From Escherichia coli (lineage in GTDB: Bacteria > Pseudomonadota > Gammaproteobacteria > Enterobacterales > Enterobacteriaceae): a stretch of DNA of 64,000 nt. Made by a program: the position numbers and the translations under genes. The DNA is taken from NCBI RefSeq assembly GCF_003018255.1, contig NZ_CP027440.1; one strand, given 5' to 3'. The notes under the pieces are model-generated. The model ran no database searches. It saw only the letters and a list, made by a program, of their open reading frames with translations, and had not been told where the DNA came from. Below are positions 590 through 49,068 of the stretch, in pieces. Every line of letters begins with the position of its first letter. Position 1 is the stretch's first letter.

Positions 590-674
590 GCCGAAGTGGC
601 GAAATCGGTAGACGCAGTTGATTCAAAATCAACCGTAGAAATACGTGCCGGTTCGAGTCCGGCCTTCGGCACCA
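590..674 (+). tRNA. leuX: tRNA-Leu, anticodon CAA
   Basis: 85-nt sequence GCCGAAGTGG...GGTTCGAGTCCGGCCTTCGGCACCA. It has a 7-bp acceptor stem, anticodon stem GTTGA/TCAAC with loop TTCAAAA (CAA), a long variable arm, a T-loop GGTTCGAGTCC and an encoded CCA. Confidence 0.95.
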
Positions 675-2771: not shown

Positions 2772-3770
2772 ATGAAGGAAGAACAGCTTTTGTCTGATGC
2801 GATAGAGAATCTGCCAAAAGGATTCCATTTGCAGTATGAACATAGCGGTAGACATGGTAAGCACGATGCCTGGGGTAAGCTAACAGGGCCGGATGGTGAG
2901 TCAGTGATATTTGCTCTGGAAGTAAAATTTATCCACCGTAAAGAGTCACTGATGGCTGTTCGCGAACAAATGGTTCGCTTTCCTGCGGATTTTCCTGTGC
3001 TGCTGGTGTGTAACCGCCTGACGTCTGCACTGGCGGAATATTGCGCCGACAGCCAGATCAACTTTATCGATACGGCAGGGAATGCCCGTATCCAGGTTCC
3101 AGGCTTGTATGTGCGGATCGAAGGCCGCTATGAAAAGAAACCCGTTTCCGCCAGCAGTCGTTTTGCTGAAGGGGTGATGAAGCTTCTTTTTGTTTTGCTG
3201 TCTAGCCCAGAGACCCTGAACGAGACTTACCGCAGTCTGGCCGGAAAGGCAGGTATCTCTCTGGGAATGGTCAGCAAGGCTTTTGATTATCTCGAAGCGC
3301 AACGCTATTTCCGCAAATCGAAGAAGGGGCGTCGCTTAATCAATGAAGGCGAGTTAGAGGCTTTGTGGCTGAAAGATTATGCTACAGCTTTGCGCCCTAA
3401 GCTGGATTCGCTTTCTTTATCCGCGCCTGTTTCATGGGATGAGTTGACGCTTGCGTCCGGGGAATACTGGAGCGGCGAGATTGCGGCGGCAAAGCTGAGC
3501 GGAGGATACCTGATACCAGAAAATGGCGTGATTTTTACATCCCATCCGTTGTTACAAAGGCGAAAGGAACTGGGACTAAAACCTGTTCCGGGGGGGAAAC
3601 TACAGCTGATCGCCGGTTTTTGGGGGAACTTTGTACTGAATCACAAAGCCGAGGCGATGCTATGCGTGGCTGAACTGCTGGCAAGCGGGGATGACAGAAA
3701 CTGGGAAACAGCAAGGATAATCAATGACAAATATCTTCACCTTAATGAATCCGATCTCTTCAGCTACTGA
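2772..3770 (+). CDS. Putative AbiEi-like / winged-helix protein (partner of downstream nucleotidyltransferase)
   Basis: ORF 2757-3770. The preferred ATG is at 2772 (GAGGTG SD 7 nt upstream). Central wHTH-like segment TYRSLAGKAGISLGMVSKAFDYLEAQRYF. Overlaps the next ORF. The family call is tentative. Confidence 0.5.
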   Translation: MKEEQLLSDAIENLPKGFHLQYEHSGRHGKHDAWGKLTGPDGESVIFALEVKFIHRKESLMAVREQMVRFPADFPVLLVCNRLTSALAEYCADSQINFIDTAGNARIQVPGLYVRIEGRYEKKPVSASSRFAEGVMKLLFVLLSSPETLNETYRSLAGKAGISLGMVSKAFDYLEAQRYFRKSKKGRRLINEGELEALWLKDYATALRPKLDSLSLSAPVSWDELTLASGEYWSGEIAAAKLSGGYLIPENGVIFTSHPLLQRRKELGLKPVPGGKLQLIAGFWGNFVLNHKAEAMLCVAELLASGDDRNWETARIINDKYLHLNESDLFSY

Positions 3771-4533
3771 AACGTTACTGAGTCAGATCAACCGTATTTG
3801 CACCGCTCAGGGGATCCCGTTTTTTATTGCAGGTGCAACGGCTCGTGAAATTCTGCTCCATCATATACACAGCAGAAGTATTGGTCGCCGAACCCGTGAT
3901 ATTGATATTGCCGTCTTTGTGGATAGCTGGCCGAGATTTGATGCGCTTAAAAATGCTTTCCTTGCTGAAGGGGCAGAAGTTGTCCAAGGTAATGCCCATC
4001 GTATGATTGTCAAAGGGATCGAGCTAGATATTATTCCTTTTGGTGGTGTTGCTGAAGGAAATCAAATTGCCTGGCCACCAGAACGTGAGATCATAATGGC
4101 TGTGGATGGATTTGCCGAAGTCTTTTCTCATACCGTAGTTGTGCGGCTGGATAACAGCGAAAATATTCCGTTCTGCTCCTTGCCAGGACTGGCTCTGTTA
4201 AAACTTTTTGCATGGCGTGATCGTGGGCATGGGAGTACTAAAGACGCGACCGATCTCTTTAAGATTATCTGTGAATATGGTGTTATCGAGAATGAACGCA
4301 TCTATGAATCGCCCGTCGAAGGGGAACGCCTGAACTGGGATCCCATACGTATGGGCGCTTTTCTGTTGGGAAGCGATATAGCGACAATTAGTGAACACTC
4401 ATCCTTGCAGGATTTACTCCATCTTGATAAAGAACGCCTGATCGATGTGATAGTACGACAACATGACGTGGGTGATGCTGGGATTGAGCAGATCATCAAT
4501 GATTTCTGGGATGGTATGGCAAGTGATGGTTGA
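3724..4533 (+). CDS. Pol-beta-superfamily nucleotidyltransferase, AbiEii-like
   Basis: 269 aa. AGATAREILLHHIHSRSIGRRTRDIDIAVFV fits the G-x-A..R-x-T-x-DID NTase motif, with a second acidic stretch IELDIIPFG. Overlaps the upstream gene. Confidence 0.6.
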   Translation: MTNIFTLMNPISSATETLLSQINRICTAQGIPFFIAGATAREILLHHIHSRSIGRRTRDIDIAVFVDSWPRFDALKNAFLAEGAEVVQGNAHRMIVKGIELDIIPFGGVAEGNQIAWPPEREIIMAVDGFAEVFSHTVVVRLDNSENIPFCSLPGLALLKLFAWRDRGHGSTKDATDLFKIICEYGVIENERIYESPVEGERLNWDPIRMGAFLLGSDIATISEHSSLQDLLHLDKERLIDVIVRQHDVGDAGIEQIINDFWDGMASDG

Positions 4534-11373: not shown

Positions 11374-11392
11374 TTTATGCGGTGCGCATAAA
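11374..11392. repeat. 19-bp palindrome TTTATGCGGTGCGCATAAA, copy 1
   Basis: Identical to 49043-49061. Lies immediately 3' of the minus-strand gene ending at 11436. Confidence 0.6.
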
Positions 11393-11435
11393 CTCAGCTA
11401 CAAGCCCTGTTCATCACACCGTCAGTACGAAATCT

Positions 11436-20236: not shown

Positions 20237-21237
20237 GAGTATGGCGCGGGATGATTCTGCTGGCGGGGATCCTGTTCTGCCAGGCGTCGTGGGCGTTTTG
20301 CACGTCTTCGGTGAGTTTCTCCATCAGCCCCGGTACGGTGGTGGTCCAGCGGGATGCTGTGGTGGGGGAACCCATTAGCGACTGGCTGGTGTCGAACCAG
20401 GGGATGGCCTATCAGGACTGCAATTATGATGCAACGCCACAATACGTCATCAATGCAGGCATCAAAAACACGGGCTCCCGCGCCAGCGTCACCTGGAATG
20501 GTGAGGCGGTGTTTAACAGTAATGTCGCAGGTGTGGGATTTGTGTTTGAAGGCCGCTCCTCGGTCGACAGCAATCCGTTACCGGAAAACTGGATCGGTAT
20601 CGCCAGCGGGCAGTCGCAGGTATTCACGCTCCAGATAAGCCACAGCGTTGGCTACCATCCCTCCATTAACGATCAGGCGCGGATCCGGCTGATAAAAACC
20701 GGCGACATTACGCCCGGTACGCTGAGCGGCAACCTGGGGCGTTTTATCGCGGGGACAAGGGAGAACGGGCAGTGGTCGACTGAAATTCCCATTACATTTT
20801 CCGGTGGGCAAATCACCACCATCGCCTGCTCAGTGACCACGCCTGATGTCAATGTGCCGCTGGGGCAGCATCAAAAAGCGGAGTTCTCCGGGCCGGGAAC
20901 GGGAACCGGCTGGCAGGCGTTTAACATCGGGCTGGACTGCGATAAAAGTGCCCGTATCAACGTTCAGATAGATGCCGTACAGGATCCGTCCAACGTGGCT
21001 GGCGTGATGAAGCTGGACAGCGCGCCCGGAGACATGGCGGCTACGGGCATCGGTGTCCAGTTGTTCTTTGCACCGGATAACAGCGCCGTACAGTTTGGTC
21101 AGTCACGCTATTACTATACCTCTCCCAATGGCGGTACTGAGACAGTGCAGCTTAAGGCGCGGTATTACCAGACCGCAGCCACGATTACTGCAGGTGTTGC
21201 CAATGCCACGGCGACCTTCACGCTGACCTATAAATGA
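20233..21237 (+). CDS. Two-domain fimbrial tip adhesin-like subunit, paralogue 1
   Basis: Start MRVWRGMILLAGILFCQASWA overlaps the usher stop. The C-terminal pilin domain ends ..ATATFTLTYK. The N-terminal ~170 aa are divergent. Confidence 0.7.
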   Translation: MRVWRGMILLAGILFCQASWAFCTSSVSFSISPGTVVVQRDAVVGEPISDWLVSNQGMAYQDCNYDATPQYVINAGIKNTGSRASVTWNGEAVFNSNVAGVGFVFEGRSSVDSNPLPENWIGIASGQSQVFTLQISHSVGYHPSINDQARIRLIKTGDITPGTLSGNLGRFIAGTRENGQWSTEIPITFSGGQITTIACSVTTPDVNVPLGQHQKAEFSGPGTGTGWQAFNIGLDCDKSARINVQIDAVQDPSNVAGVMKLDSAPGDMAATGIGVQLFFAPDNSAVQFGQSRYYYTSPNGGTETVQLKARYYQTAATITAGVANATATFTLTYK

Positions 21238-21255
21238 CGTCGCCGGAGTGTTGAG

Positions 21256-22203
21256 ATGAGAAAAATTCTTTTCTTCCTGCTGTTGATGATAGCCGTCCTG
21301 CCGGAGGTTCAGGCCACCTGTTCGTTCTACGGTGGTGTGACATCAGAAGTATCGGGTTACCTGAATTTCGGCAACGTGGTTATCCAGCGGGATGCACAGG
21401 TCGGCAGCACGATTGCCACTGCCATTACAGGGGCATACAACAATGGCGACGGCATTGCCGGGTGTAAGCGGGAGGCCTGGACCGCCCGCTGGGAACTGAC
21501 GCAATGGGGGACGCTGAGTGGCTATGGGAATGGTGTCTACAACACCAACCTGCCAGGGGTAGGATTACGTCTGAGTGCGGCCTCGACAGGTAAAACATTG
21601 CCCTATGAAACCAGCTACGCCTACAACGCTGGCGGCACCTGGGTATCCATTCCCGGTGATGGCATCAAGGGCGAGCTTATCAAAACCGGGGATATCACCA
21701 GCGGTACATTAACGGACGGTGTGCTGGCGCGCGCTTCGGTAGTGAATCAGTTTTATTTTGCCAACGTCACGTTGAACGGGATGAACACAGTGAAATCAGA
21801 AGCTTGTACTGTGACCACGCCCTCTGTTGATGTCCCGATGGGGGATCACGATAAAAGCGAATTCAGTGGTGCGGGATCTTCAACCGACTGGGTGAGCTTT
21901 GATATTGGTTTGAGCTGCGATGTCGGGGCGAGAATAAACGTACGTATCGATGCCACTGCGGATGCTTCCGCCGGTTCGCAAGGCGTCATGCTGATTGATA
22001 GCGGCGGGGCGTCTGGCGTGGGGATACAACTTCATTACCGCCCGGATGATGCCGCTGTCCAGTACGGTCAGGAACGGTTTTACTGGCAGTCGGTATATGG
22101 TGACGAGATCGTGCAGCTTAAGGCGCGATATTACCAGACTGCAGGCTCGATCACGCCAGGTGCGGCAAACGGTACGGCGACGTTTACGATGAGTTATAAA
22201 TAG
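21256..22203 (+). CDS. Two-domain fimbrial tip adhesin-like subunit, paralogue 2
   Basis: 315 aa. The C-terminal half aligns with 20233-21237 (C[ST]VTTP.V.VP.G.H.K.EFSG...QLKARYYQTA..I..G.ANGTATFT.SYK). The N-terminal halves differ. Confidence 0.7.
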   Translation: MRKILFFLLLMIAVLPEVQATCSFYGGVTSEVSGYLNFGNVVIQRDAQVGSTIATAITGAYNNGDGIAGCKREAWTARWELTQWGTLSGYGNGVYNTNLPGVGLRLSAASTGKTLPYETSYAYNAGGTWVSIPGDGIKGELIKTGDITSGTLTDGVLARASVVNQFYFANVTLNGMNTVKSEACTVTTPSVDVPMGDHDKSEFSGAGSSTDWVSFDIGLSCDVGARINVRIDATADASAGSQGVMLIDSGGASGVGIQLHYRPDDAAVQYGQERFYWQSVYGDEIVQLKARYYQTAGSITPGAANGTATFTMSYK

Positions 22204-22214
22204 CGCGTAATCAT

Positions 22215-23762
22215 ATGGAATATTCTATGTCGGATATTGTCGCCGGGAACAGGATTGCTGCTCAATATTTAAGAATGTCTACCGAGCATCAGAAATATTC
22301 GCCGGAGAACCAGCGGGAATATATCGAGAAGTATGCAAAAGAACACTGTATTACCATTAAATATACCTATGACGACGCTGGCCGAAGTGGGCTGAGCCTG
22401 GATAACAGGCCTGGCCTGCGTTCGCTGTTATATGATGTTGAAAACGGAATAATAAAAGTCTCGTTAATTCTTGTTTACGATGTCAGTCGGTTTGGTCGTT
22501 TTCAGGATATTGAAGAGGCTGCTCATTACTCGTGGCTACTGAAGCGTAATGGTGTGCGCATTATTTATTGCGCGGAGCCTTTCTCGGAAGAACAGACCGA
22601 ATTGTTTATGCTGGGATTATCTTACTCCCGCTATGGCGCCGCAACTTACAGTAAAAACCTTTCACAAAAAGTTTTTCTTGGCCAGGCAAACCTCGTTCGG
22701 CGGGGTTATTATCAAGGTGGTATGCCTGGCTATGGCATTCGGAGATTATTAATTGATGAACATACTAATCCGAAAGGCATGCTTCTGCCGGGGCAAAGGA
22801 AAAGCCTGCAAACTGACAGAGTAATATTGATCCCGGGGCCCGCGGAAGAGGTGGTAATAGTCAATAAAATCTATGACATGTTTATTGATGAGGGCAAGCC
22901 TGAGTTTGTTATTGCTTCAGAACTGAACCGGAAGAACATCCCCGCCGAGAATGGGCTCCAGTGGAGCCGATGTAAAATTCATCAGATACTGACCAATGAA
23001 AAATATATTGGCAATAATGTTTATAACAGAACCTCCGGACGATTGAAGACCCGAAGTGTCAGGAATCCTCAGGATCAGTGGATCAGATGTGACGGCGCGT
23101 GGGACCCTGTGGTATCAGTAGAGAAATTTGAGGCGGCTAAAAGGATTATTGAAGCCAGGGCCGTTCAGTACAGTGATGATGAACTGCTGGATAAACTACG
23201 CCATCTGCTGAAGCTTCGTGGCAGATTATCCGGGATTGTGATTGATGAAGAGGAACTGTTTCCATCGAGCAGCATTTTTCGTTCACGGTTTGGTGGGTTA
23301 GTCAGGGCTTACACCCTTATTGGTTATCACCCGCGCCATGATTACTCTTATCTTGAAATAAAAAAGCAGATTGCAGAATGCCATCTCACTTTCATGGATA
23401 ATTTGGTGCAGGATATATACCGATATGGCGGTTGGGCAGAGATGCATCAGGATGGTTCATTATATATTAATGATGAGTTTTTTGTTTCCGCTAATCTGGT
23501 TCGCTGCCAACGTTTGTCGTCAGGTAAGCTTCGTTGGAAGATAAAATTTAATGTATCCCATTATTGTGATGTCATGATCTTTCCACGGTTGGATAGCACA
23601 AATAACTCCGTGGTTGATTACTTTATGTTTCCGGCTATTGATGTGTTGTATAACGATTTAACGCTTCATGAGAACAATGGTTTTATCCTCGAACTATATC
23701 GATTTGATGATTTGTCATGTCTGGAAAATCTTGTAAAACGAACTGGTCTGGAGAGTAAATAA
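22215..23762 (+). CDS. Large serine recombinase
   Basis: 515 aa. AAQYLRMSTEHQ (catalytic Ser region), DDAGRSG and VYDVSRFGR form the resolvase domain, followed by a recombinase/zinc-ribbon-length extension. Lower GC than the fim genes. Confidence 0.85.
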   Translation: MEYSMSDIVAGNRIAAQYLRMSTEHQKYSPENQREYIEKYAKEHCITIKYTYDDAGRSGLSLDNRPGLRSLLYDVENGIIKVSLILVYDVSRFGRFQDIEEAAHYSWLLKRNGVRIIYCAEPFSEEQTELFMLGLSYSRYGAATYSKNLSQKVFLGQANLVRRGYYQGGMPGYGIRRLLIDEHTNPKGMLLPGQRKSLQTDRVILIPGPAEEVVIVNKIYDMFIDEGKPEFVIASELNRKNIPAENGLQWSRCKIHQILTNEKYIGNNVYNRTSGRLKTRSVRNPQDQWIRCDGAWDPVVSVEKFEAAKRIIEARAVQYSDDELLDKLRHLLKLRGRLSGIVIDEEELFPSSSIFRSRFGGLVRAYTLIGYHPRHDYSYLEIKKQIAECHLTFMDNLVQDIYRYGGWAEMHQDGSLYINDEFFVSANLVRCQRLSSGKLRWKIKFNVSHYCDVMIFPRLDSTNNSVVDYFMFPAIDVLYNDLTLHENNGFILELYRFDDLSCLENLVKRTGLESK

Positions 23763-24649
23763 TGAAATCTTTTGATGAACAGATAGAACTTGTCGATATC
23801 AGTGATATTTATATCGCAAATCCACGGAAAAGGAATAAATTCATTCATAATGAAATAAAAGAGAACATAAAAACCATTGGTCTGAAACGGCCTGTTAGCG
23901 TGCGCCCAGTGAATAATGAAAACTATAAATATGCCCTGATTTGTGGTCAGGGACGACTTGAAGCGTATATTGAGTATGGTGAAACGAAAATTCCTGCAAT
24001 CATCAAGCAGGTTGATGAAGAGACAGCGCACCTGATGAGCCTGGCTGAAAACATCGCAAGACGTAATCCCCGGGCGGCAGAGCTAATGGAAGATATCAGA
24101 AGAATGAAGACCAGTGGCCTGACCGATCGTGAAATAGGCTTGCGGCTTGGGTATAATTCGAGTTGGGTAAATGGGGTGATCACTCTGTTGTCATCCGGAG
24201 AGAAGCATCTTTTGCGGGCATTTGAGACTGGCGATATTCCCTTGTATCTTGCTGTGGAAATATCCCGGTCAGGAGATGAGGAAACTCAGGAACTGCTGAC
24301 GGTCGCCCTGAAAGAAGGACATATCAAGGGTGGGCAAATTAATAAGATCAGGCGCATACTTGAACAACGTAAGAAAGGCGATAAAGGTACGATTAGTACG
24401 GCTTTTTTTCCTGGGAAAAAACAGAAAAAACTGACCCCGGAAGAACTGGCTAATGTCTACCAGGAAAACATTAATGAGCAAAAAGCCATTCTGCTGAAAT
24501 CCACAATGGTTAAAGAGAAAATTCTGGCAGTAAAGCAAATATTTGGTTATTTACTTAAAGATAATGATTTTGTTACATTGCTGCACAGTAATAATATCCA
24601 CGATATTCCTTCTTTACTGGATGGCAGTGATGTATCGGGGGAGAAATAA
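23762..24649 (+). CDS. ParB/RepB-like protein 1
   Basis: 295 aa. ParB N-domain pattern IGLKRPVSVRP..YALICGQGRLEA, then HTH-like TDREIGLRLGYNSSWV. TAATG overlap with the recombinase stop. Confidence 0.7.
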   Translation: MKSFDEQIELVDISDIYIANPRKRNKFIHNEIKENIKTIGLKRPVSVRPVNNENYKYALICGQGRLEAYIEYGETKIPAIIKQVDEETAHLMSLAENIARRNPRAAELMEDIRRMKTSGLTDREIGLRLGYNSSWVNGVITLLSSGEKHLLRAFETGDIPLYLAVEISRSGDEETQELLTVALKEGHIKGGQINKIRRILEQRKKGDKGTISTAFFPGKKQKKLTPEELANVYQENINEQKAILLKSTMVKEKILAVKQIFGYLLKDNDFVTLLHSNNIHDIPSLLDGSDVSGEK

Positions 24650-24650
24650 G

Positions 24651-25541
24651 ATGATTTCACAATGTTTTGACTCCCGATTTTATACCTTTAAGGTGGAATC
24701 ACTGGTGTATGCCAGAACGCTGCCGGTTAATGTTAAATTCAGTACGAAGTACAAACAAATTAAAGCCTCTGTCGATGAAATTGGGTTAATTGAACCCATT
24801 GTGGTTTATATCAATGACGCCAATGATAAAGTCATTCTGGATGGACATCTTCGCGTTGAAGTTTTGAAAGAACTCGGAATAACTACTGCTCATTGTCTGA
24901 TATCCCCTGTGGAGGATACATATTCATATAACAAACGTGTTAGTCGCCTTACCATTGTGCAGGCCCAAAACATGCTGCTTAAAGCGGTTGAATCTGGCGT
25001 TTCAGTTGAAAAACTATGCGCCGTACTGGGTGTCACGCCAGATACGCTGATTGGTAAACTGAAAATTTCTGATGGCATTGCCCCTGAAGTCATGGCGTTA
25101 CTGGCAGAAAAAAATGTACCGCAGACCATTTTCTCTGTGTTGAAAAAACTAAAGTTCTATAAGCAGATAGAAATGGTTAACACCATGATCAGTATTAATA
25201 ATTTCACCCGCAAATTTGCGATGTCGATGCTGCATGCCGTTGCCCCTGAACATCTTGTAGCGCCTAAAAAAGATGCCAGCAGAGAAACAGATATCAGAAA
25301 AAATCTCGAAAGACTGGAAAAAGAAATGGCTTCCGTTCAGGTGGAAACGCAGCATCTTCAGGATGAATATGCTGAGAATAACCTTCGGCTGGTTATCATT
25401 AAAAATCACATTGAACGTCTGCTGGCGAACGGTCAGGTACTTAACTGGCTTTATGATAACCATCAGGAGTACCTTTCTGTGCTCAAGCAAATCTCGGGGC
25501 TGGATGATTTGAATAAGCTTGGCCAGACAATTGAGGAATGA
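24651..25541 (+). CDS. ParB-like protein 2 (divergent) with a C-terminal coiled coil
   Basis: Start at MISQCF (GGGGGAG SD), 1 nt after the previous stop. IGLIEPIVVY...VILDGHLRVEVLKELG is ParB-N-like. C-terminal heptad-rich LERLEKEMASVQVETQHLQDE. Confidence 0.6.
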   Translation: MISQCFDSRFYTFKVESLVYARTLPVNVKFSTKYKQIKASVDEIGLIEPIVVYINDANDKVILDGHLRVEVLKELGITTAHCLISPVEDTYSYNKRVSRLTIVQAQNMLLKAVESGVSVEKLCAVLGVTPDTLIGKLKISDGIAPEVMALLAEKNVPQTIFSVLKKLKFYKQIEMVNTMISINNFTRKFAMSMLHAVAPEHLVAPKKDASRETDIRKNLERLEKEMASVQVETQHLQDEYAENNLRLVIIKNHIERLLANGQVLNWLYDNHQEYLSVLKQISGLDDLNKLGQTIEE

Positions 25542-25740
25542 CACATTTTTAAAGCAAGGACTGCTGTTTTACAGATTGCCACTATGATGGGATGCACTGA
25601 GAGAGGAGGGCGTGCTGGTGGTTGACGTGATTCAACTGGTGCGGAAAATCTTGCTCAAAGGACGATGGCTTAAAATCAAGTTGCTGTTTCAAAAATGAAA
25701 AAGTAGATTTACATCCACTTTTCTTACTGAGGTAAAAATA

Positions 25741-26199
25741 GTGCATATAGATGCGGATTTCATAAGCTTGAGCACATTGGTGGCTAATCAACAAGCTGCA
25801 AAATGGGCGGGGGTTGCTGCTATTGCTGCCTGTTTGACGTTTGTTGTGACAACGATAGGTTTACTACTTGCTTGGCGGTCGTTGCATCAGTGGAAGCCTC
25901 AATACAAAGAAAACTCTAGACTTCTCCTAATCGAAGCTTTAATCGCATTTCAGAAATGTTTAATAACTATACCAAAAAATCTCGATAACGATCCCACCTA
26001 TCAAAGCCGAAAGGAATTTTTGAAGGCAAGTACTGAAGTTGAGCTAAGAGGACAAATATATCTTAAGCAACACAGCAACGAAAAATTAAAAGATGAATTA
26101 GCAAATCTCAGGAGTAAATGTGCAGAATTTGTTGGTGGTAAGGTGACTAAACCTGAACTGTCATTCATCTCAGCAATAATATTACTCATTGAAGTATAA
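25741..26199 (+). CDS. Hypothetical single-pass membrane protein
   Basis: 152-aa ORF with a GTG start. One TM span (WAGVAAIAACLTFVVTTIGLLLAW). AT-rich like the preceding three genes. Confidence 0.4.
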   Translation: MHIDADFISLSTLVANQQAAKWAGVAAIAACLTFVVTTIGLLLAWRSLHQWKPQYKENSRLLLIEALIAFQKCLITIPKNLDNDPTYQSRKEFLKASTEVELRGQIYLKQHSNEKLKDELANLRSKCAEFVGGKVTKPELSFISAIILLIEV

Positions 26200-26301
26200 T
26201 AGATTCTGGGCTAACACCAATCGGTTACCCGGTTGGGATATCGCTTCCGGGTAACCTGTGGAAAGGCAAAAGCCACTCCACAGGTTGCCCGAGCATATCG
26301 A

Positions 26302-27093
26302 TTACATGTTTGCGTCTTTATTTAACGCATATTGCCAGTTAGCTGCATCCAGCTTTCTCAGCAACGCGCAAAGCACATCCACCAGACAGGCGAGGATCCG
26401 CTGGCCTTTTTCCGCCGTGGCGCAGCGCGGATCGCCGGTTGCTCCGGTGGCGCTGATTTCCCCGATATCCCAGATCCGGTTCACGCCATAATCAGCGAAC
26501 ACCTCCACCGGGATCTGTTTCTGCGCATATTTCAGTTCCACCAGCTCCGGAATCAGCGCCATCATGACGGACGTTTCGCCCTCGCCGCCGTGTCCTAGTC
26601 CGGTGTTATCCCATGAGTCGAAAAATCCCTTCCCGAGATGATGTCCCACCAGATCCCACCACGCCGGAACCACGACAATCGCTGCCTGCGTATGTCGGGC
26701 CTTCACATTGCGGGCGGCGATTTCAATCGCCGGAATATTACCGTCATGGCCGTTAATCACCAGGATCCGGCGAATACCGTGGTGCAGCAGGCTGATGAAG
26801 ATATCTTCCGCCAGCGCGATATTGGTCTCGTAGCGTAGGGTGACCGCCAGTGGATAGGCATTGTAGTGAACGGATGTGCCGAACGGCGTGCAGGGCAGCA
26901 CAAGGGTATTATCCACCCGCTGCGCCACCCGGCAGGCGACGATTTCGGGTACAAACATATCGGGGCCGAGTGGCAGGTGATCGGCGTGGTTCTCACAACT
27001 GCCGAAGTTGACGATAGCAGTGAGTTCCTTACCAGACTGCAACAGCTCGCGGATTTCCCGGCCAGTCAGTTCATTGAGCATGACTTTTTTCAT
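26302..27093 (-). CDS. Creatininase-family amidohydrolase
   Basis: MKKVMLNELTGREIRE..AIVNFGSCENHADHLPLG..INGHDGN..GHGGEGETS, which are creatininase-fold metal-binding motifs. Confidence 0.8.
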   Translation of the reverse strand: MKKVMLNELTGREIRELLQSGKELTAIVNFGSCENHADHLPLGPDMFVPEIVACRVAQRVDNTLVLPCTPFGTSVHYNAYPLAVTLRYETNIALAEDIFISLLHHGIRRILVINGHDGNIPAIEIAARNVKARHTQAAIVVVPAWWDLVGHHLGKGFFDSWDNTGLGHGGEGETSVMMALIPELVELKYAQKQIPVEVFADYGVNRIWDIGEISATGATGDPRCATAEKGQRILACLVDVLCALLRKLDAANWQYALNKDANM

Positions 27094-28429
27094 CGGACAG
27101 CCTCCTGTTTTTTCGGACGACAAAGATGTAGTACGCGCTGGCGAGGGCCAGCCAGATCAGGACGGTAACCAGGGTAATGCCGCCGCCGTCGGTGAAAAAT
27201 TGCCCGGCCATGATCAGCGCAATCAGCCCCACGGTGAGTGGCTGGATGTAGCGGGCGGCCGGAGCCTTGTATTTCAGCGTTCCGTCGTGCAGGGCTATTC
27301 GGTGCAGGGTGGGCTGGCTTAAGGCAATCATCAGCCAGGTGAACAGAAAGCCGAATCCGGAAATCCCGGCGAGGATGACATACGCATCTGGCGAGAGAAT
27401 GGCGATGATGACGCCGGTAAACAGCACCAGGCTGCTGGCAAGAATGGCGTTATCCGGTGTTTTATGTGCCGGGTGCAGGCGGGCAAACCAGGCCGGGAAA
27501 TAGCCGTCAGACGCCATGGCGTGCAGCATCCGCGAGGTGGCGTAAACCCCGGTATCGATGCAGGAGAGCGCGGCGGTCAGCACCACAAAGTTCATGATAT
27601 GCCGCGCCATATGGCCACCGAGAATGCCGGAAGCTTCGACATACGGGCTGCTGCTGACACCTGCCTGCTGCCAGGGGAGAACGAGCAGCAGAACGGTCAA
27701 TGAGCCGACATACAGCAACAGGATCCGCACCACGGTGCCACGCAGCGTACGAGGAATATCACGCTGTGGGTTCTCGCTTTCACCCGCGGCGGTGCCGATG
27801 GCCTCTGTCCCGCCGAAAGAGAAAATCACCATTAACATCGCGCCGAGAAATCCGGGCAGCCCGCCAGCAAAAAAGCTGCCGCTGTCGGTCGGATGACTGA
27901 TGCTGGCGGGTGAGGCGTTATCCAGTCCCAGGCTGTAGCAGCCCGCGACGATAAAGGCCAGCAGCGCCACGACTTTCACCAGGCTCAGCCAGAACTCCAC
28001 TTCACCGAAAAAATGAACGCCGACCATGTTGATGGCAGTCAGCGACGAAGCGATCACCAGGCAAAACAGCCAGACGGGGACTCCGGGAAACCACAGGTTC
28101 AGGAAGGTGCCTGCAGCGATGGCCTCCGACGCCGGGCCAATCAGGAAGGCCAGCCAGTAGGTCCACCCGGTGATAAAGCCACACCATGGGCCAAAGGCGG
28201 TGCGGGCATAGGATTCAAAGGAACCGGAGACGGGCCTGGCGACCGCCATTTCGGCAAGCAACAGCATAATGAACAGGGTGATGACACCGCCGATAAGGTA
28301 GGCCAGCACCACCGACGGCCCGGTACGGGCAATGGCCGCGCCTGCGCCGAGGAAAAATCCGGCACCAATCACGCCTCCCACGGAAATCATCGTCAGGTGA
28401 CGGGCTTTCAGACTTCTGTTGAGTTCCAT
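27071..28429 (-). CDS. APC-family amino-acid permease
   Basis: MELNRSLKARHLTMISVGGVIGAGFFLG signature and about 12 hydrophobic spans. Confidence 0.85.
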   Translation of the reverse strand: MELNRSLKARHLTMISVGGVIGAGFFLGAGAAIARTGPSVVLAYLIGGVITLFIMLLLAEMAVARPVSGSFESYARTAFGPWCGFITGWTYWLAFLIGPASEAIAAGTFLNLWFPGVPVWLFCLVIASSLTAINMVGVHFFGEVEFWLSLVKVVALLAFIVAGCYSLGLDNASPASISHPTDSGSFFAGGLPGFLGAMLMVIFSFGGTEAIGTAAGESENPQRDIPRTLRGTVVRILLLYVGSLTVLLLVLPWQQAGVSSSPYVEASGILGGHMARHIMNFVVLTAALSCIDTGVYATSRMLHAMASDGYFPAWFARLHPAHKTPDNAILASSLVLFTGVIIAILSPDAYVILAGISGFGFLFTWLMIALSQPTLHRIALHDGTLKYKAPAARYIQPLTVGLIALIMAGQFFTDGGGITLVTVLIWLALASAYYIFVVRKNRRLSDEKSHAQ

Positions 28430-29359: not shown

Positions 29360-29422
29360 TGACTATGAGTCACGAATGTATGCTAGCACGCTTTTTATGT
29401 GACTCATAGTCCGTGGACTGAT
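29360..29422. promoter_or_regulatory. Divergent-promoter operator: 13-bp perfect inverted repeat plus a 25-nt box
   Basis: GACTATGAGTCAC (29360-29372) and GTGACTCATAGTC (29398-29410). The box GTGACTCATAGTCCGTGGACTGATA runs 29398-29422. Confidence 0.6.
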
Positions 29423-29448
29423 AATCAACGAAGATTGATGCTGGCTAG

Positions 29449-29712
29449 ATGGAAAAGACGGGATCAATCAAAAAGGTACTGGGTAAAAGAATCAGGGCTC
29501 TACGCCGTGAGATGGACCTATCCCAGGAAGCTTTAGCCGACAAATGCGGTATCGATCGCACCTATATGAGTGGAATTGAGCGAGGAGTAAGGAACCCCAC
29601 GCTTGTTGTCATTTGTGCAATCTCGGACGGTCTGGGGATGGATCTTAGCCATTTATTTATGTTTGACGATGGCGCAGAAAAGGACGCCGAATCAACGAAG
29701 TGTGACTCATAG
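29449..29712 (+). CDS. XRE-family HTH regulator, tandem paralogue 1
   Basis: 87 aa. LSQEALADKCGIDRTYMSGIERGVRNPTL. Confidence 0.8.
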   Translation: MEKTGSIKKVLGKRIRALRREMDLSQEALADKCGIDRTYMSGIERGVRNPTLVVICAISDGLGMDLSHLFMFDDGAEKDAESTKCDS

Positions 29713-29725
29713 TCCGTGGTCTGAT
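29701..29725 (+). promoter_or_regulatory. Second copy of the 25-nt box
   Basis: GTGACTCATAGTCCGTGGTCTGATA, 24/25 identical to 29398-29422. Overlaps the end of paralogue 1 and lies upstream of paralogue 2. Confidence 0.6.
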
Positions 29726-29751
29726 AGACAACGTAAGTTCATTTTATCTGG

Positions 29752-29976
29752 ATGAAAAATACATCCAGTATTCAGGCGCAGTTTGGCGCACATCTCAAAA
29801 AACTCAGACTCCAGTCGGGCCTGTCTCAGGAAGCATTCGCGGATAAGTGTGGTCTCGATCGTACTTATGTGAGCGGTATTGAGCGGGGAGTAAGGAATCC
29901 AACCCTTGAGGTGATAAGTGTTTTAGGAAAAGGGTTGGACATGGACATCAAAGAATTATTCAACTTTGAAAGATAG
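29752..29976 (+). CDS. XRE-family HTH regulator, tandem paralogue 2
   Basis: 74 aa. LSQEAFADKCGLDRTYVSGIERGVRNPTL. Confidence 0.8.
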   Translation: MKNTSSIQAQFGAHLKKLRLQSGLSQEAFADKCGLDRTYVSGIERGVRNPTLEVISVLGKGLDMDIKELFNFER

Positions 29977-29978
29977 GT

Positions 29979-30923
29979 TTATCTATTAGTAGCAACTCTA
30001 TCCGCAGCAGTACGGGTAACTTGATTTCCAACATCCCAGCCGTTTTCATCTGGGAGTGACATCCCATCCATTGGCATTAGGATAAAACCACCAATAGTTG
30101 GTCCAAATGACTCAGTAGTGTTAATTCCTGCATAGCTTGTTCTGATAATATTTTCATTCAAATTGGTCAAAAATGATATTCGAGTACCAAGTGGGTGCGC
30201 GGTTACCATTTGGATGTATCCACCAATAGTATTGACTGTTTCTTGGTTAATCCAATTATTCAAAGCAATAAACGGGGTACGCCACCAATTTATTGTGTTA
30301 GGAGTAAATTGTTGCCTGGTATTCTCTATAAACTCATTAAGTTCATGCAAGTTATCACCTAATAAAACAGGTCTGCCTGTTGATAAATTTTGAATATCTT
30401 CAATCTGGAGGTTGGCTGGGTGCTCAATAGAGTTATTGAGTTTTATAATTTTGTAGGTTTGTGTTCTCCAGCAAAAACCAAAAATTATCATCTGTATTCT
30501 TACTGCTTGGGGAAAGGATTGGCCGATATCAGACATATATTGCTCGGCAATATTTTTTGCTAATGAAGCTATTTCATTAAGACTTGGGAATGCTTCGGTC
30601 GATATTTGTTGTTCTGGATTATTGTTCGCAATCTCATGAAGTCTTGCTAATGATACTGCAAGCATTTCTTTGACATTAATTCCAATCATTGTACTTCCTG
30701 CAAATCCGAAGCCAAATTCGAATATTTTTTGCGGGTGAATTCGATAAACGTCCGAAGAGCGAATAACTGATACGGGGATTGAGAATAATTTCGGACAATG
30801 GTCAGTTAGTCTGCTATTTTGCTGAGTGATTCTTGAGTCGCTGACTGCCCAAATACTATCGCTTTCCTCTCTATTAAACCAACATGCAATTGCGGTCATA
30901 AGGTTTTTCCAGTTATTTAACAT
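29979..30923 (-). CDS. Hypothetical 314-aa protein (possible Ntn-hydrolase/proteasome-like N-domain; start may be 30899)
   Basis: AT-rich ORF immediately downstream of the TraC-like gene. MTAIACW..WAVSDSRIT..PKLFSIP..FGFAGSTMIG loosely follows the proteasome-beta/HslV pattern. No firm family. Confidence 0.5.
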   Translation of the reverse strand: MLNNWKNLMTAIACWFNREESDSIWAVSDSRITQQNSRLTDHCPKLFSIPVSVIRSSDVYRIHPQKIFEFGFGFAGSTMIGINVKEMLAVSLARLHEIANNNPEQQISTEAFPSLNEIASLAKNIAEQYMSDIGQSFPQAVRIQMIIFGFCWRTQTYKIIKLNNSIEHPANLQIEDIQNLSTGRPVLLGDNLHELNEFIENTRQQFTPNTINWWRTPFIALNNWINQETVNTIGGYIQMVTAHPLGTRISFLTNLNENIIRTSYAGINTTESFGPTIGGFILMPMDGMSLPDENGWDVGNQVTRTAADRVATNR

Positions 30924-49042: not shown

Positions 49043-49061
49043 TTTATGCGGTGCGCATAAA
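49043..49061. repeat. 19-bp palindrome TTTATGCGGTGCGCATAAA, copy 2
   Basis: Identical to 11374-11392. Lies immediately 3' of the minus-strand gene ending at 49069. Confidence 0.6.
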
Positions 49062-49068
49062 ATCAGGG

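What the first reader, a model, noticed from the sequence alone, without database searches (positions are those of the whole stretch)
22215..26199. Low-GC block of a large serine recombinase plus two divergent ParB/RepB-like proteins (and a small membrane protein) inserted 12 bp after the fimbrial operon
Genes 1 and 2 overlap (TAATG). Genes 2 and 3 are separated by 1 nt, so they are probably one transcription unit. The two ParB-like proteins are not close paralogues: one has a RepB-like HTH middle, and the other has a coiled-coil tail. There is no ParA, replication gene or obvious att or res repeat that I could find at the block edges, so this is neither a standard partition locus nor an obvious integrative element. 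The combination could be a small mobile module, a DNA-inversion/regulatory device, or a ParB-CTPase-based system of unknown role such as plasmid or phage interference.
Basis: partly seen in the sequence, partly recalled or inferred. Interest (0 to 1): 0.6.

Follow-up and report, generated by a model that had tools for sequence, protein, structure and literature searches.

The report
Recombinase plus two ParB proteins module
A conserved, uncharacterised three-gene operon (an unusual serine recombinase plus two ParB-like DNA clamps) rides as cargo in an E. coli conjugative element; relatives sit beside defence genes in many bacteria, including strain BL21, so it can be tested directly.

Summary
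Three tightly coupled genes lie at 22215-25541: a serine recombinase and two very different ParB/RepB-like proteins. They form a 42% GC block 11 nt after a fimbrial operon.

The block is not a free-standing insertion. It is cargo inside a decaying PFGI-1/ICEclc-type conjugative element integrated at leuX. The fourth gene, a small membrane ORF, belongs to a separate variable slot.

The trio is a real, widespread module:
- It has the same order and coupling in about 50 loci from Enterobacterales to Alpha- and Betaproteobacteria.
- A 51%-identical version lies next to ssrA in about 13% of complete E. coli genomes, including BL21.
- dN/dS is 0.02-0.05.
- The catalytic serine motif is invariant. 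ParB1 keeps ParB CTP-type motifs and ParB2 is degenerate.
- The recombinase lacks the zinc-ribbon/coiled-coil domain of phage integrases and instead carries a restriction-endonuclease-fold domain.

I found no att, res or inverted repeats and no sign of self-mobility. Neighbours are tyrosine integrases and many defence genes. No PADLOC model and no paper found describes the trio.

My best guess, mostly inferred, is a trans-acting ParB-clamp-guided recombinase that interferes with foreign DNA. The main rival is a resolution or stability module for mobile elements.

The parts
22204..22214 (+). 11-nt spacer between the stop codon of the last fimbrial gene and the recombinase ATG. It leaves no room for a promoter or operator of the trio's own.
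   Evidence: Sequence read. No promoter-like or terminator-like site is predicted here. In relatives outside this ICE lineage, a promoter with a palindromic operator sits at about -78 to -40. That palindrome is absent from the whole window at up to 2 mismatches.
22215..23762 (+). Rec: a non-canonical large serine recombinase of 515 aa. It has a catalytic domain, a recombinase domain, a helical motif and a restriction-endonuclease-fold C-terminal domain.
   Evidence: Pfam Resolvase 2.9e-20 and Recombinase 1.9e-23. The AF2 model has mean pLDDT 78. Foldseek matches SprA, Bxb1 and phiC31 integrases over about 320 columns only. dN/dS is about 0.05.
22278..22280 (+). Codon of the predicted catalytic serine (S22) in Y-x-R-M-S-T-x-x-Q. 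The partner motif D-x-S-R-x-G-R lies at aa 89-95.
   Evidence: Both motifs are invariant in 38 non-redundant trio orthologues. Coordinates checked by translation.
23175..23345 (+). Rec aa 321-377: a conserved helical motif (L..L...G.LSG.IIDE..PSS..RFG.L..AY.LIGY.P..DY).
   Evidence: This is the most conserved part of the C-terminal half. The same about 55-aa stretch recurs 3-7 times in unrelated proteins in the 1.8-billion-protein library.
23427..23684 (+). Rec aa 405-490: a beta-rich domain with a PD-(D/E)XK (restriction endonuclease / Holliday-junction resolvase) fold. It stands where phage integrases carry the zinc ribbon and coiled coil.
23762..24649 (+). ParB1: a ParB N-terminal domain, HTH and RepB-type C-terminal region (295 aa). 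Its start overlaps the Rec stop (TAATG).
   Evidence: Pfam ParB_N 1.1e-11 and RepB 5e-13. It aligns to Spo0J, Noc and KorB structures. The motifs P-R-x-R (aa 21-24), C-G-Q-G-R-x-E (aa 61-67; nt 23945-23956 = GQGR) and E-N-x-A-R (aa 96-100; nt 24047-24061) are invariant in 38 orthologues. dN/dS is 0.02-0.04.
24651..25541 (+). ParB2: a degenerate ParB-like protein with a RepB-type region and a coiled-coil tail (296 aa). It starts 1 nt after the ParB1 stop.
   Evidence: Pfam RepB 1.2e-23; ParB_N is weak at 1e-3. A profile of the family matches Noc structures at 6e-9. D-G-H-L-R-x-E (nt 24840-24854 = DGHLR) is invariant, but the P-R and E-N motifs are missing. It matches phrog_31451 at 5e-72. dN/dS is 0.03-0.05.
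25543..26329 (+). A separate variable cargo slot holding the 152-aa single-pass membrane ORF (25741-26199). It is NOT part of the conserved module.
   Evidence: In NZ_CP028744 this stretch is replaced by an FMN-binding regulator gene while the trio is kept. The ORF was found only in the window's own record among all loci. Its only match is phrog_6169, of unknown function.

Best explanation
**What it is (shown).**
- The block is two adjacent cargo slots of a leuX-integrated, decaying PFGI-1/ICEclc-type integrative conjugative element.
- Its core, 22215-25541, is a self-contained three-gene operon, Rec-ParB1-ParB2. The operon is conserved as a unit across Proteobacteria and is under strong purifying selection.
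- It is exchanged between mobile elements as a cassette. In most lineages the cassette is a promoter with a palindromic operator plus the three genes.
- It typically sits next to a tyrosine integrase or other mobility genes, among defence and toxin-antitoxin genes.

**How it most likely works (inferred).**
- ParB1 keeps variants of the three ParB nucleotide-binding motifs. ParB2 is degenerate and has a coiled-coil tail. The two probably form an asymmetric CTP-switch DNA clamp.
- The clamp would bind a short palindrome. In relatives this is AAAWTGATCAATTT, which overlaps the operon's own promoter and would give autoregulation.
- The clamp would recruit or license Rec. Rec is a catalytically intact serine recombinase whose zinc-ribbon/coiled-coil control domain is replaced by a helical motif and a nuclease-fold DNA-recognition domain.
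- In the ICE lineage of this window the operon has lost its promoter and palindrome and keeps no conserved flanking DNA, yet it stays under strong selection. I therefore infer that it acts in trans on other DNA.
- Given its neighbourhoods, the most likely role is interference with invading or competing DNA such as plasmids, phages or other islands. Rec would break or rearrange DNA marked by the ParB pair.
- In this window the operon is probably transcribed by read-through from the phase-variable fimbrial operon.
For: **Conservation and selection.**
- The trio has the same order, with overlapping or abutting genes, in about 50 of 57 loci recovered with ParB2 alone. Taxa include Enterobacterales, Burkholderiales, Nevskia, Rhizobiales, Rhodospirillales and a Sumerlaeia MAG.
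- dN/dS is 0.02-0.05 at dS 1-2 within the ICE lineage.
- Identity across the four ICE copies falls to 0.04-0.09 per 100-nt bin outside the trio, against about 0.6-0.8 inside it.

**Unit of exchange.** Pairs at 87-91% DNA identity in different contexts share exactly -78 to the ParB2 stop codon.

**Proteins.**
- The Rec catalytic motifs and the ParB1 motifs are invariant; ParB2 is degenerate.
- Rec matches LSR structures only over the N-terminal and recombinase domains.
- The Rec C-terminal domain has a PD-(D/E)XK fold.

**Cis elements.** A palindrome lies at a fixed -55 in about 30 loci, between a -35 element and an extended -10. It is absent from the window.

**Context.**
- ICE cargo in the window.
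- ssrA-int-trio followed by a type I R-M system in E. coli.
- First cargo gene of a Tn7-like element.
- Beside toxin-antitoxin, R-M, DUF6119 and Dnd-like genes on alphaproteobacterial plasmids.
- The 130 immediate neighbours matched 146 PADLOC families. These include pAgo+SIR2, type III R-M, Kiwa, DarG, PD-T4-3, IetA, MADS and AriA-like.
- The only recurrent neighbour is a tyrosine integrase, found in 21 loci.

**Distribution.** It occurs in 692 of 5426 complete E. coli genomes, never on their plasmids. It is absent from every enterobacterial plasmid in PLSDB.
Against: - No experiment supports any function.
- No PADLOC model matches any of the three proteins as a defence component.
- Association with defence genes is guilt by association. 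The same regions also hold stability genes such as toxin-antitoxins.
- From general knowledge, E. coli B and BL21 carry a trio yet are the classical permissive hosts for T-phages and take up common plasmids readily. Any protection must therefore be narrow or conditional.
- No target DNA is known.
- CTP binding, ParB1-ParB2 heterodimerisation and a Rec-ParB contact are all inferred from motifs, not shown.
- The nuclease-fold domain lacks a conserved catalytic triad.
- Trios on alpha- and betaproteobacterial plasmids (103 records) fit a plasmid-maintenance role equally well.
Confidence: 0.4

Rival explanations
1. A multimer or cointegrate resolution and stability module for circular forms of mobile elements. 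Rec would act as a resolvase at a single site per element, the palindrome that overlaps its own promoter, as in Tn3, Sin and beta res sites. The ParB pair would replace accessory res subsites or Fis/Hbsu-type factors and ensure that only sites on the same molecule recombine.
For: - There is one palindrome per locus, at a fixed position over the promoter. Its dyad centre falls on the A|T step of a GATC core.
- The trio lives on elements that pass through circular intermediates: ICEs, islands with MobA/MobL relaxases, and conjugative plasmids of Alpha- and Betaproteobacteria.
- Toxin-antitoxin neighbours suit a stability region.
- Rec lacks the domain that gives phage integrases their attP/attB selectivity.
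Against: - The ICE lineage of the window has lost the palindrome and all conserved flanking DNA, yet keeps dN/dS at 0.02-0.05.
- No embedded conserved DNA site was found in the coding regions.
- The trio was not found on enterobacterial plasmids, where resolution systems are common.
- It is also cargo of a TnsA-bearing Tn7-like transposon, which from general knowledge transposes by cut-and-paste and would not form cointegrates.
- It persists in chromosomal islands whose integrase is decayed.
- A 14-16 bp palindrome is shorter than the resolvase crossover sites I recall, and fits an HTH operator better.
Confidence: 0.25
2. The two ParB-like proteins are CTP-dependent transcriptional regulators of their host mobile element, in the manner of KorB, BisD or VirB. 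The recombinase would be a co-regulated but functionally separate partner.
For: - The palindromic operator overlaps the -10 of the operon's own promoter.
- ParB family members on mobile elements are known regulators. BisD, Noc, PadC, Osa and HerB are listed in PMC13370423, and VirB appears in PMC10770331.
- The window's ICE has its own ParB-family plus DUF2857 pair. I take this for a BisD/BisC-like pair from memory.
Against: - The three genes are strictly co-inherited and apparently translationally coupled across phyla.
- The Rec catalytic residues are invariant.
- The host elements are of unrelated types, so no common regulon exists.
- Only one operator copy is present per locus.
Confidence: 0.12
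3. The trio is a small autonomous mobile element or an integration module. Rec would be its integrase or transposase and the ParB proteins its helpers.
For: - Sharp cassette boundaries at -78 and at the stop codon, seen at 87-91% identity in different contexts.
- Recurrent 3,980-bp assembly contigs.
- Precedents of large serine recombinases with helper proteins, including a ParBc-domain protein in the Dehalococcoides ssrA-island integration module (PMC3146451).
Against: - No terminal inverted or direct repeats and no att-like core were found at the boundaries.
- The flanking about 200-bp direct repeats in E. coli are 3' fragments of tyrosine-integrase pseudogenes.
- The 3,980-bp contigs begin and end inside those repeats, so they are an assembly effect.
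- There are one, rarely two, copies per genome.
- The trio lies inside, not at the edge of, its host elements.
- The ICE lineage has kept one position while synonymous sites diverged to saturation.
Confidence: 0.07
4. A DNA-inversion (phase-variation) switch or a degenerate partition locus.
For: - It sits next to a phase-variable fimbrial operon.
- NCBI annotates the ParB-like proteins as partition proteins.
Against: - No inverted repeat of 24 nt or more involves the block anywhere in the 64-kb window. The short local ones are at chance level and are not conserved.
- The fim operon has its own tyrosine invertase.
- No ParA gene is adjacent in the window or in the loci whose annotation I inspected, and none was a recurrent neighbour.
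- No parS array is present.
Confidence: 0.04

Closest known systems
Large serine recombinases (phage and ICE integrases such as SPbeta SprA, Bxb1 and phiC31; CcrB, TnpX)
   Same: - The catalytic domain has the Ser nucleophile and the D-x-S-R-x-G-R motif, followed by the 'recombinase domain'.
- The best structural matches are SprA, Bxb1 and phiC31 (E 3e-14 to 8e-10).
- The best NCBIfam match is CcrB, far below its cut-off.
   Different: - There is no zinc-ribbon or coiled-coil domain. In its place are a helical motif and a PD-(D/E)XK-fold domain.
- It is not at the edge of a mobile element, and no att sites were found.
- It is always followed by two ParB-like genes.
Serine recombinase with two dedicated accessory proteins: XisF-XisH-XisI of the Anabaena fdxN element (recalled from memory; NCBIfam XisF model hit at E 1e-4)
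   Same: A three-gene logic: a large serine recombinase whose activity depends on two small co-encoded helper proteins.
   Different: - From memory, the XisH and XisI helpers are not ParB-like.
- XisF excises an element flanked by its sites. No such sites exist here.
ParB-CTP molecular switches outside partition: KorB, Noc, BisD (ICEclc), VirB, HerB/YfjB
   Same: - A ParB N-domain plus HTH. ParB1 aligns to Spo0J, Noc and KorB structures.
- They are encoded on mobile elements.
- A single palindromic operator is present in relatives.
- No ParA partner is present.
   Different: - Two very divergent ParB-like proteins in tandem, one of them degenerate.
- The nucleotide-binding box reads GQGR or GHLR rather than GERR.
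- The pair is obligately coupled to a recombinase, which none of these systems has.
Resolvase/res systems of Tn3-family transposons and plasmids (Tn3, Sin, beta, RK2 ParA)
   Same: A serine recombinase gene preceded, in relatives, by a palindromic site that overlaps its promoter. It is carried by mobile elements.
   Different: - Rec is an LSR-type protein of 515 aa, not a small resolvase with a C-terminal HTH.
- No three-subsite res region is present.
- The site is missing in the window's lineage.
- Accessory functions would be supplied by ParB-like proteins.
Dehalococcoides ssrA-island integration module (DsiB serine integrase, DsiA, RecF-like, ParBc-domain protein, Mom-like) - PMC3146451
   Same: A CcrB-like large serine recombinase is co-encoded with a ParB-domain protein in islands at ssrA.
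   Different: - That module has six genes and lies at the island edge with ssrA direct repeats. DsiB is its proposed integrase.
- Here a tyrosine integrase occupies that role, and the trio is internal cargo.

Membership tests
Large serine recombinase (integrase-type) | N-terminal catalytic domain with the serine nucleophile and conserved Arg/Asp residues | tested here: met
   Pfam Resolvase 2.9e-20. Y-x-R-M-S-T-x-x-Q and D-x-S-R-x-G-R are invariant in 38 orthologues.
Large serine recombinase (integrase-type) | Recombinase domain (PF07508) following the long alpha-E helix | tested here: met
   PF07508 1.9e-23, aa 211-315. Structural match to SprA, Bxb1 and phiC31 over about 320 columns.
Large serine recombinase (integrase-type) | C-terminal zinc-ribbon domain with an embedded coiled coil | tested here: not met
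   No Pfam hit in aa 316-515, even at E<=1. The LSR structures do not align beyond about aa 320. Modelled alone, the C-terminal region has a PD-(D/E)XK fold.
Large serine recombinase (integrase-type) | Gene lies at the edge of a mobile element flanked by attL and attR | tested here: not met
   It is internal to the ICE. No repeats lie at the edges. Homology with sister ICEs ends at gene ends, with no shared core.
ParABS partition system | ParA (Walker ATPase) encoded next to ParB | tested here: not met
   No ParA adjoins the trio in the window or in the loci whose annotation I inspected, and none was a recurrent neighbour.
ParABS partition system | ParB with N-terminal CTP-binding motifs (PR box, GERR box, ENLQR box) and an HTH | tested here: inconclusive
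   ParB1 keeps P-R-x-R, G-Q-G-R and E-N-x-A-R, all invariant. ParB2 keeps only G-H-L-R. Nucleotide binding cannot be tested with these tools.
ParABS partition system | Centromere: one or more parS palindromes near the genes | tested here: not met
   The relatives' palindrome is absent from the 64-kb window at up to 2 mismatches. Relatives have a single copy over the promoter, not an array.
Tn3-type resolvase/res system | Small resolvase (about 185-210 aa) with a C-terminal HTH and a multi-subsite res region upstream | tested here: not met
   Rec is 515 aa and of LSR type. Only 11 nt lie upstream in the window. Relatives have a single 14-16 bp palindrome.
Known anti-phage defence systems (PADLOC-DB v2, 2023) | Proteins match the HMMs of a described or candidate system | tested here: not met
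   Rec and ParB1 have no hit. ParB2 has only a weak ParB-domain hit to a type II methyltransferase model.
Defence-island cargo (guilt by association) | Recurrent location next to known defence genes in unrelated genomes | tested here: met
   The 130 immediate neighbours matched 146 PADLOC families, including pAgo+SIR2, type III R-M, Kiwa, DarG, PD-T4-3, IetA, MADS, AriA-like and PDC-S06. A type I R-M system lies next door in E. coli. No formal background control was run.
PFGI-1/ICEclc/SPI-7-type ICE (the host element, not the trio) | TIGR037xx-type mating-pair genes, MobH relaxase, TraD/TraG, tRNA integration site, tyrosine integrase | tested here: met
   RefSeq annotation of the identical record. 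tRNA-Leu(CAA) lies at 590-674. The integrase and topoisomerase III are pseudogenes, and no attR repeat was found in the window, so the ICE is probably decaying.
Tn5053/Tn402 res-tniR module | Resolvase placed after tniQ in a replicative TniABQ transposon | tested here: not met
   The Piscinibacter element carries TnsA, so it is Tn7-like and, from general knowledge, cut-and-paste. The trio is its first cargo gene. No Tni genes occur in the 57 genome loci.

The most novel reading that the evidence does not exclude
The trio is a new kind of immunity or conflict system. An asymmetric ParB1/ParB2 CTP-switch clamp would recognise incoming or competing DNA and license a serine recombinase. The recombinase, equipped with a nuclease-fold recognition domain in place of the integrase control domain, would then break or scramble that DNA. 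This would be the first link between ParB-type clamps and site-specific recombination. It could be tested directly in E. coli B/BL21, which carries a native copy.
Probability: 0.25. Interest if true: 0.85.

Novelty: new variant of a known kind. Interest (0 to 1): 0.62.

Why it matters
- ParB-CTP clamps are an actively expanding class of molecular switches. Large serine recombinases are important genome-engineering tools. No described system joins the two.
- A conserved operon couples a ParB pair to a recombinase that has swapped its directionality domain for a nuclease-fold domain. It would show either a new way of controlling serine recombination or a new anti-MGE mechanism.
- The module is common. 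It occurs in about 13% of complete E. coli genomes and in many Enterobacterales, rhizobial and Burkholderiales plasmids. It sits in BL21 and, by inference, other B-derived laboratory strains, so genetics and biochemistry are immediately feasible.
- For this window specifically, the operon is fused behind a phase-variable fimbrial operon in an ICE. Its expression may therefore follow the fimbrial switch.

Tried and rejected
1. **Flanking direct repeats in E. coli relatives.** Repeats of about 175-245 bp at 80-84% identity, spaced 3,958 bp apart, looked like res or att sites. They are 3' fragments of two tyrosine-integrase pseudogenes, and they are absent in sister loci and in the window.
2. **Recurrent 3,980-bp contigs.** These suggested a circular element. 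The contigs simply start and end inside those repeats, so they are an assembly effect.
3. **Cis sites embedded in the genes.**
   - Third-codon-position information across 38 orthologues gave no outlier beyond conserved amino acids.
   - Four-way nucleotide conservation within the ICE lineage showed only a weak cluster of 17-19 nt runs around the Rec/ParB1 junction (23655-23791). That is not convincing.
4. **Trio as a substitute for the TniR resolvase in Tn5053-like transposons.** The Piscinibacter element has TnsA and is Tn7-like, and no Tni genes occur in the genome loci.
5. **Integron-like cassette platform downstream of ParB2.** The breakpoints fall at gene ends and share no core motif.
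6. **Terminal inverted repeats at the cassette ends** (-78 and the stop codon). None were found.
7. **Long-range inverted repeats for an inversion switch.** None involve the block.
8. **The operator 16-mer in viral contigs.** Most hits are single and probably chance. One contig holds 61-bp tandem arrays containing the motif, but no trio-type ParB lies nearby.
9. **Literature.** Nine full-text searches found no description of the trio.
10. **AFDB fold search.** The library was not available.

Full report
**1.

- The last fimbrial gene stops at 22201-22203 (TAG). After an 11-nt spacer the recombinase starts at 22215.
- Gene 1 and gene 2 overlap in TAATG. Gene 2 and the conserved ATG of gene 3 (24651) are 1 nt apart.
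- GC is 42% in the trio and 40% in the next slot, against 58-59% on both sides.
- Gene 1 has the Resolvase and Recombinase domains. Genes 2 and 3 both match ParB_N plus the RepB family PF07506, with the ParB_N match weak for gene 3. They are only 29% identical over 62 residues.
- Gene 4 has a single predicted membrane helix and no Pfam, NCBIfam or PADLOC match.
- No ParA gene lies next to the block, and no repeats lie at the edges.

**2. Where it sits**

- The window is E. coli. Positions 21000-27500 are 100% identical to strain JNE23-011, and about 46.5 kb of that record aligns to the window at 99.98%.
- The whole region from tRNA-Leu(CAA) at 590-674 to about 62 kb is a PFGI-1/ICEclc/SPI-7-type integrative conjugative element. 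It carries a MobH relaxase, TraG, TraD, PilL2 and the TIGR037xx mating-pair genes. It also has a ParB-family plus DUF2857 pair, and further cargo.
- Its integrase and topoisomerase III are pseudogenes. I found no attR copy of the tRNA end in the window. The ICE is therefore probably decaying.
- The block lies in a cargo region between two sets of transfer genes, directly behind a fimbrial operon that has its own tyrosine invertase.
- A sister ICE (CP062901) has a SAM methyltransferase in place of 22203-26344.
- Another sister ICE (CP028744) keeps the trio but has an FMN-binding regulator in place of 25543-26329.
'Insertion' is not demonstrated. The breakpoints fall at gene ends with no shared core.

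**3. The trio is a conserved module**

- I searched 185,579 species genomes with a profile of gene 3 alone and recovered 57 loci.
- About 50 of them carry Rec-ParB1-ParB2 in the same order, with overlapping or abutting genes. They come from many Enterobacterales, Pandoraea, Noviherbaspirillum, Nevskia, Rhizobiales, Rhodospirillales and a Sumerlaeia MAG.
- The closest relatives (85-92% amino-acid identity; Enterobacter, Salmonella) sit at the same place in the same ICE family.
- Within that lineage synonymous sites are saturated (dS 1-2), while dN/dS is 0.02-0.05 for all three genes.
- Per-100-nt identity across the four ICE copies falls from about 0.6-0.8 inside the trio to 0.04-0.09 in the bins outside it.
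- A 51%-identical version is present in 692 of 5,426 complete E. coli genomes, always on the chromosome. In most it is arranged as ssrA, P4-type integrase, Rec, ParB, ParB. This includes BL21 and NEBExpress.
- The C-terminal half of Rec alone finds 474 clusters (50% identity) at E<=1e-10 among 1.8 billion representatives.

**4. The proteins**

*Rec*
- The motifs Y-x-R-M-S-T-x-x-Q and D-x-S-R-x-G-R are invariant in 38 non-redundant orthologues.
- The full-length AlphaFold model has mean pLDDT 78. It matches SprA, Bxb1 and phiC31 integrases, but only over the catalytic and recombinase domains, about 320 columns.
- Residues 321-377 are a strongly conserved helical motif. The same motif recurs several times within unrelated proteins.
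- Modelled alone, the C-terminal region has mean pLDDT 80. Its beta-rich part has a PD-(D/E)XK fold.
  - Almost all of the top 60 hits share this fold.
- The canonical acidic/lysine triad is not conserved. Several arginines, N463, D468 and N488 are.
- I therefore read the domain as a DNA-recognition or interaction domain rather than a proven nuclease.
- Rec thus lacks the zinc-ribbon/coiled-coil domain that governs att-site choice and directionality in phage integrases.

*ParB1*
- It aligns to Spo0J, Noc and KorB structures.
- It keeps invariant P-R-x-R, C-G-Q-G-R-x-E and E-N-x-A-R. These are variants of the three ParB nucleotide-binding boxes.

*ParB2*
- It keeps only D-G-H-L-R-x-E and ends in a coiled-coil-like segment.

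**5. Cis elements**

- In about 30 enterobacterial loci of several subfamilies, a 14-16 bp palindrome AAA(A/T)TGATCAATTT with a GATC core lies at a fixed -55 from the Rec ATG.
- It sits between a TTGAAA or TTGCAA -35 element and overlaps an extended -10 (TGaTCAATT). There is one copy per locus.
- Pairs of trios at 87-91% DNA identity in different genomic contexts share exactly the stretch from -78 to the ParB2 stop codon.
- The unit of exchange is therefore promoter/operator plus three genes. It has no terminal repeats.
- The window's lineage has lost this promoter. Only 11-107 nt separate the fimbrial stop from Rec, and the palindrome is absent from the whole 64-kb window at up to 2 mismatches.
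- No promoter or terminator is predicted at the junction. Read-through from the phase-variable fim operon is therefore likely, though inferred.
- Scans for embedded sites found nothing convincing.

**6. Context**

- The only recurrent neighbour is a tyrosine integrase, present in 21 loci. The usual arrangement is tRNA or tmRNA, then the integrase, then the trio. The sites include ssrA, tRNA-Arg(CCT), tRNA-Asn and tRNA-Leu.
- Other neighbours are MobA/MobL relaxases, D5-type primases, small resolvases and RES toxins.
- DUF6119/TIGR04141 lies next to the trio both in E. coli and on a Rhizobium plasmid.
- A PADLOC scan of the 130 immediate neighbours at 37 non-redundant loci matched 146 defence families. 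Hits included pAgo+SIR2, type III R-M, Kiwa, DarG, PD-T4-3, IetA, MADS and AriA-like proteins.
- In E. coli WCHEC020031 the ssrA island runs integrase, trio, type I R-M.
- On plasmids the family occurs only in Alpha- and Betaproteobacteria: 103 records and none enterobacterial.
  - There it sits among toxin-antitoxin, R-M, Dnd-like and transfer genes.
  - It often has a divergently transcribed DeoR-like HTH gene upstream.
- In Piscinibacter it is the first cargo gene after tniQ of a TnsA-bearing Tn7-like transposon.
- The window's own ICE also carries AbiE, a complete Menshen system and a type II R-M with Vsr.

**7. What it most likely does**

*Shown*
- It is a self-contained module under selection.
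- It carries its own promoter and operator, except in the ICE lineage.
- It is exchanged among mobile elements and embedded in defence or accessory regions.

*Inferred*
- ParB1 and ParB2 form an asymmetric CTP-switch clamp that binds a palindrome and controls Rec.
- The ICE lineage stays under strong purifying selection without the palindrome or any conserved flanking DNA. I therefore infer action in trans on other DNA.
- Given the neighbourhoods, interference with invading or competing DNA is my leading guess (confidence about 0.4 for the whole statement).

*Rivals*
- The main rival is a resolution or stability module that uses the promoter palindrome as its single site (0.25). It is weakened by three observations: the ICE lineage lacks the site, enterobacterial plasmids lack the trio, and the trio is carried by a cut-and-paste transposon.
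- Pure regulation (0.12), autonomous mobility (0.07) and inversion or partition (0.04) fit worse.

*Against the defence reading*
- No PADLOC model matches.
- From general knowledge, E. coli B strains carry a trio yet are permissive for T-phages and common plasmids.

**8. Comparison with known systems and novelty**

- The parts belong to known families: LSR-type serine recombinases and the ParB/Noc/KorB superfamily.
- Rec fails two defining LSR features: the zinc-ribbon/coiled-coil domain, and flanking att sites at an element edge.
- The locus fails the ParABS definition: no ParA and no centromere.
- The closest analogies are recombinases with two dedicated helpers (XisF/XisH/XisI, recalled from memory) and non-partition ParB-CTP switches such as KorB, BisD, VirB and HerB (PMC13370423, PMC10770331).
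- A further analogy is the Dehalococcoides ssrA-island module, which pairs a CcrB-like integrase with a ParBc protein (PMC3146451).
- Nine full-text searches found no paper that describes this trio.
- I rate it a new variant of known kinds. I give about one chance in four that it is a new type of ParB-guided recombinase immunity.

Noticed in passing
window 590-674 to about 62,000: Most of the window is a PFGI-1/ICEclc/SPI-7-type ICE integrated at tRNA-Leu(CAA) (leuX). The integrase (about 898-2145) and topoisomerase III (about 45,886-47,691) are pseudogenes. No attR copy of the tRNA 3' end occurs in the window. The ICE is probably immobile and decaying.
   Followed up: partly
window about 53.2-57.2 kb (L081:6632-10630): A complete Menshen defence system lies near the far end of the ICE: NsnA 1.7e-113, NsnB 1.4e-104, NsnC 1.4e-83. 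It is followed at about 57.3-60.1 kb by a type II restriction enzyme, a Dcm methyltransferase and Vsr.
   Followed up: yes
window about 49.9-51.8 kb (L081:3351-5175, minus strand): The ICE's own 'ParB family protein' (427 aa) lies next to a DUF2857 protein. From memory this resembles the BisD/BisC transfer-competence activator pair of ICEclc. It is unrelated to the trio's ParB proteins and has no PADLOC hit.
   Followed up: no
window 29979-30923 (minus strand): A second low-GC (35-39%) variable slot holds a 314-aa ORF with no PADLOC hit. Sister ICEs carry a RES-domain protein, a PLD-family protein or a Septu-like HNH plus AAA pair at this position. It is probably another defence-cargo hotspot.
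   Followed up: partly
window 11374-11397 and 49043-49066: Two copies (96% identical) of a 24-nt sequence containing the palindrome TTTATGCG-GTG-CGCATAAA lie 37.7 kb apart, in intergenic parts of the ICE. They may be binding sites for an ICE regulator.
   Followed up: no
window 2772-4533: An AbiEi/AbiEii (type IV toxin-antitoxin / abortive infection) pair lies just inside the leuX end of the ICE.
   Followed up: no
L077:8330-13177 (E. coli BL21 TaKaRa, NZ_CP010816.1): BL21 and NEBExpress carry a 51%-identical trio directly after ssrA and a P4-type integrase, followed by IS1 and glaH. About 590 other complete E. coli genomes have the same arrangement.
   Followed up: yes
L006:13836-15443; L087:1521-3503; also L033, L041 and L065 neighbours: DUF6119/TIGR04141 ('sporadically distributed protein') is an immediate neighbour of the trio in several unrelated hosts: 4 of the 130 neighbour ORFs scanned at 37 loci, plus a Rhizobium plasmid. 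This may be a functional link or just shared defence-island residence.
   Followed up: partly
L083:3756-4388, L085:3745-4362, L087:3737-4366, L089:3745-4374 (minus strand): Alphaproteobacterial trios have a fourth conserved gene. It is a divergently transcribed protein of about 209 aa with a C-terminal DeoR-like HTH, and is probably a dedicated regulator. Enterobacterial trios lack it.
   Followed up: partly
L156:394-1917, L191, L150 (IMGVR_UViG_641201063_000001): One 131-kb viral contig has several arrays of a 61-bp tandem repeat. The core of the repeat is a 24-bp perfect palindrome, TTTCAAAATTGATCAATTTTGAAA, which contains the trio's operator motif. No trio-type ParB lies nearby, so this may be coincidence.
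   Followed up: partly
window 29398-29459 and 29701-29762: Two adjacent small Xre-type HTH genes are preceded by a 62-nt direct repeat (77% identity). This is a tandem duplication of a regulator cassette between the cargo slots.
   Followed up: no
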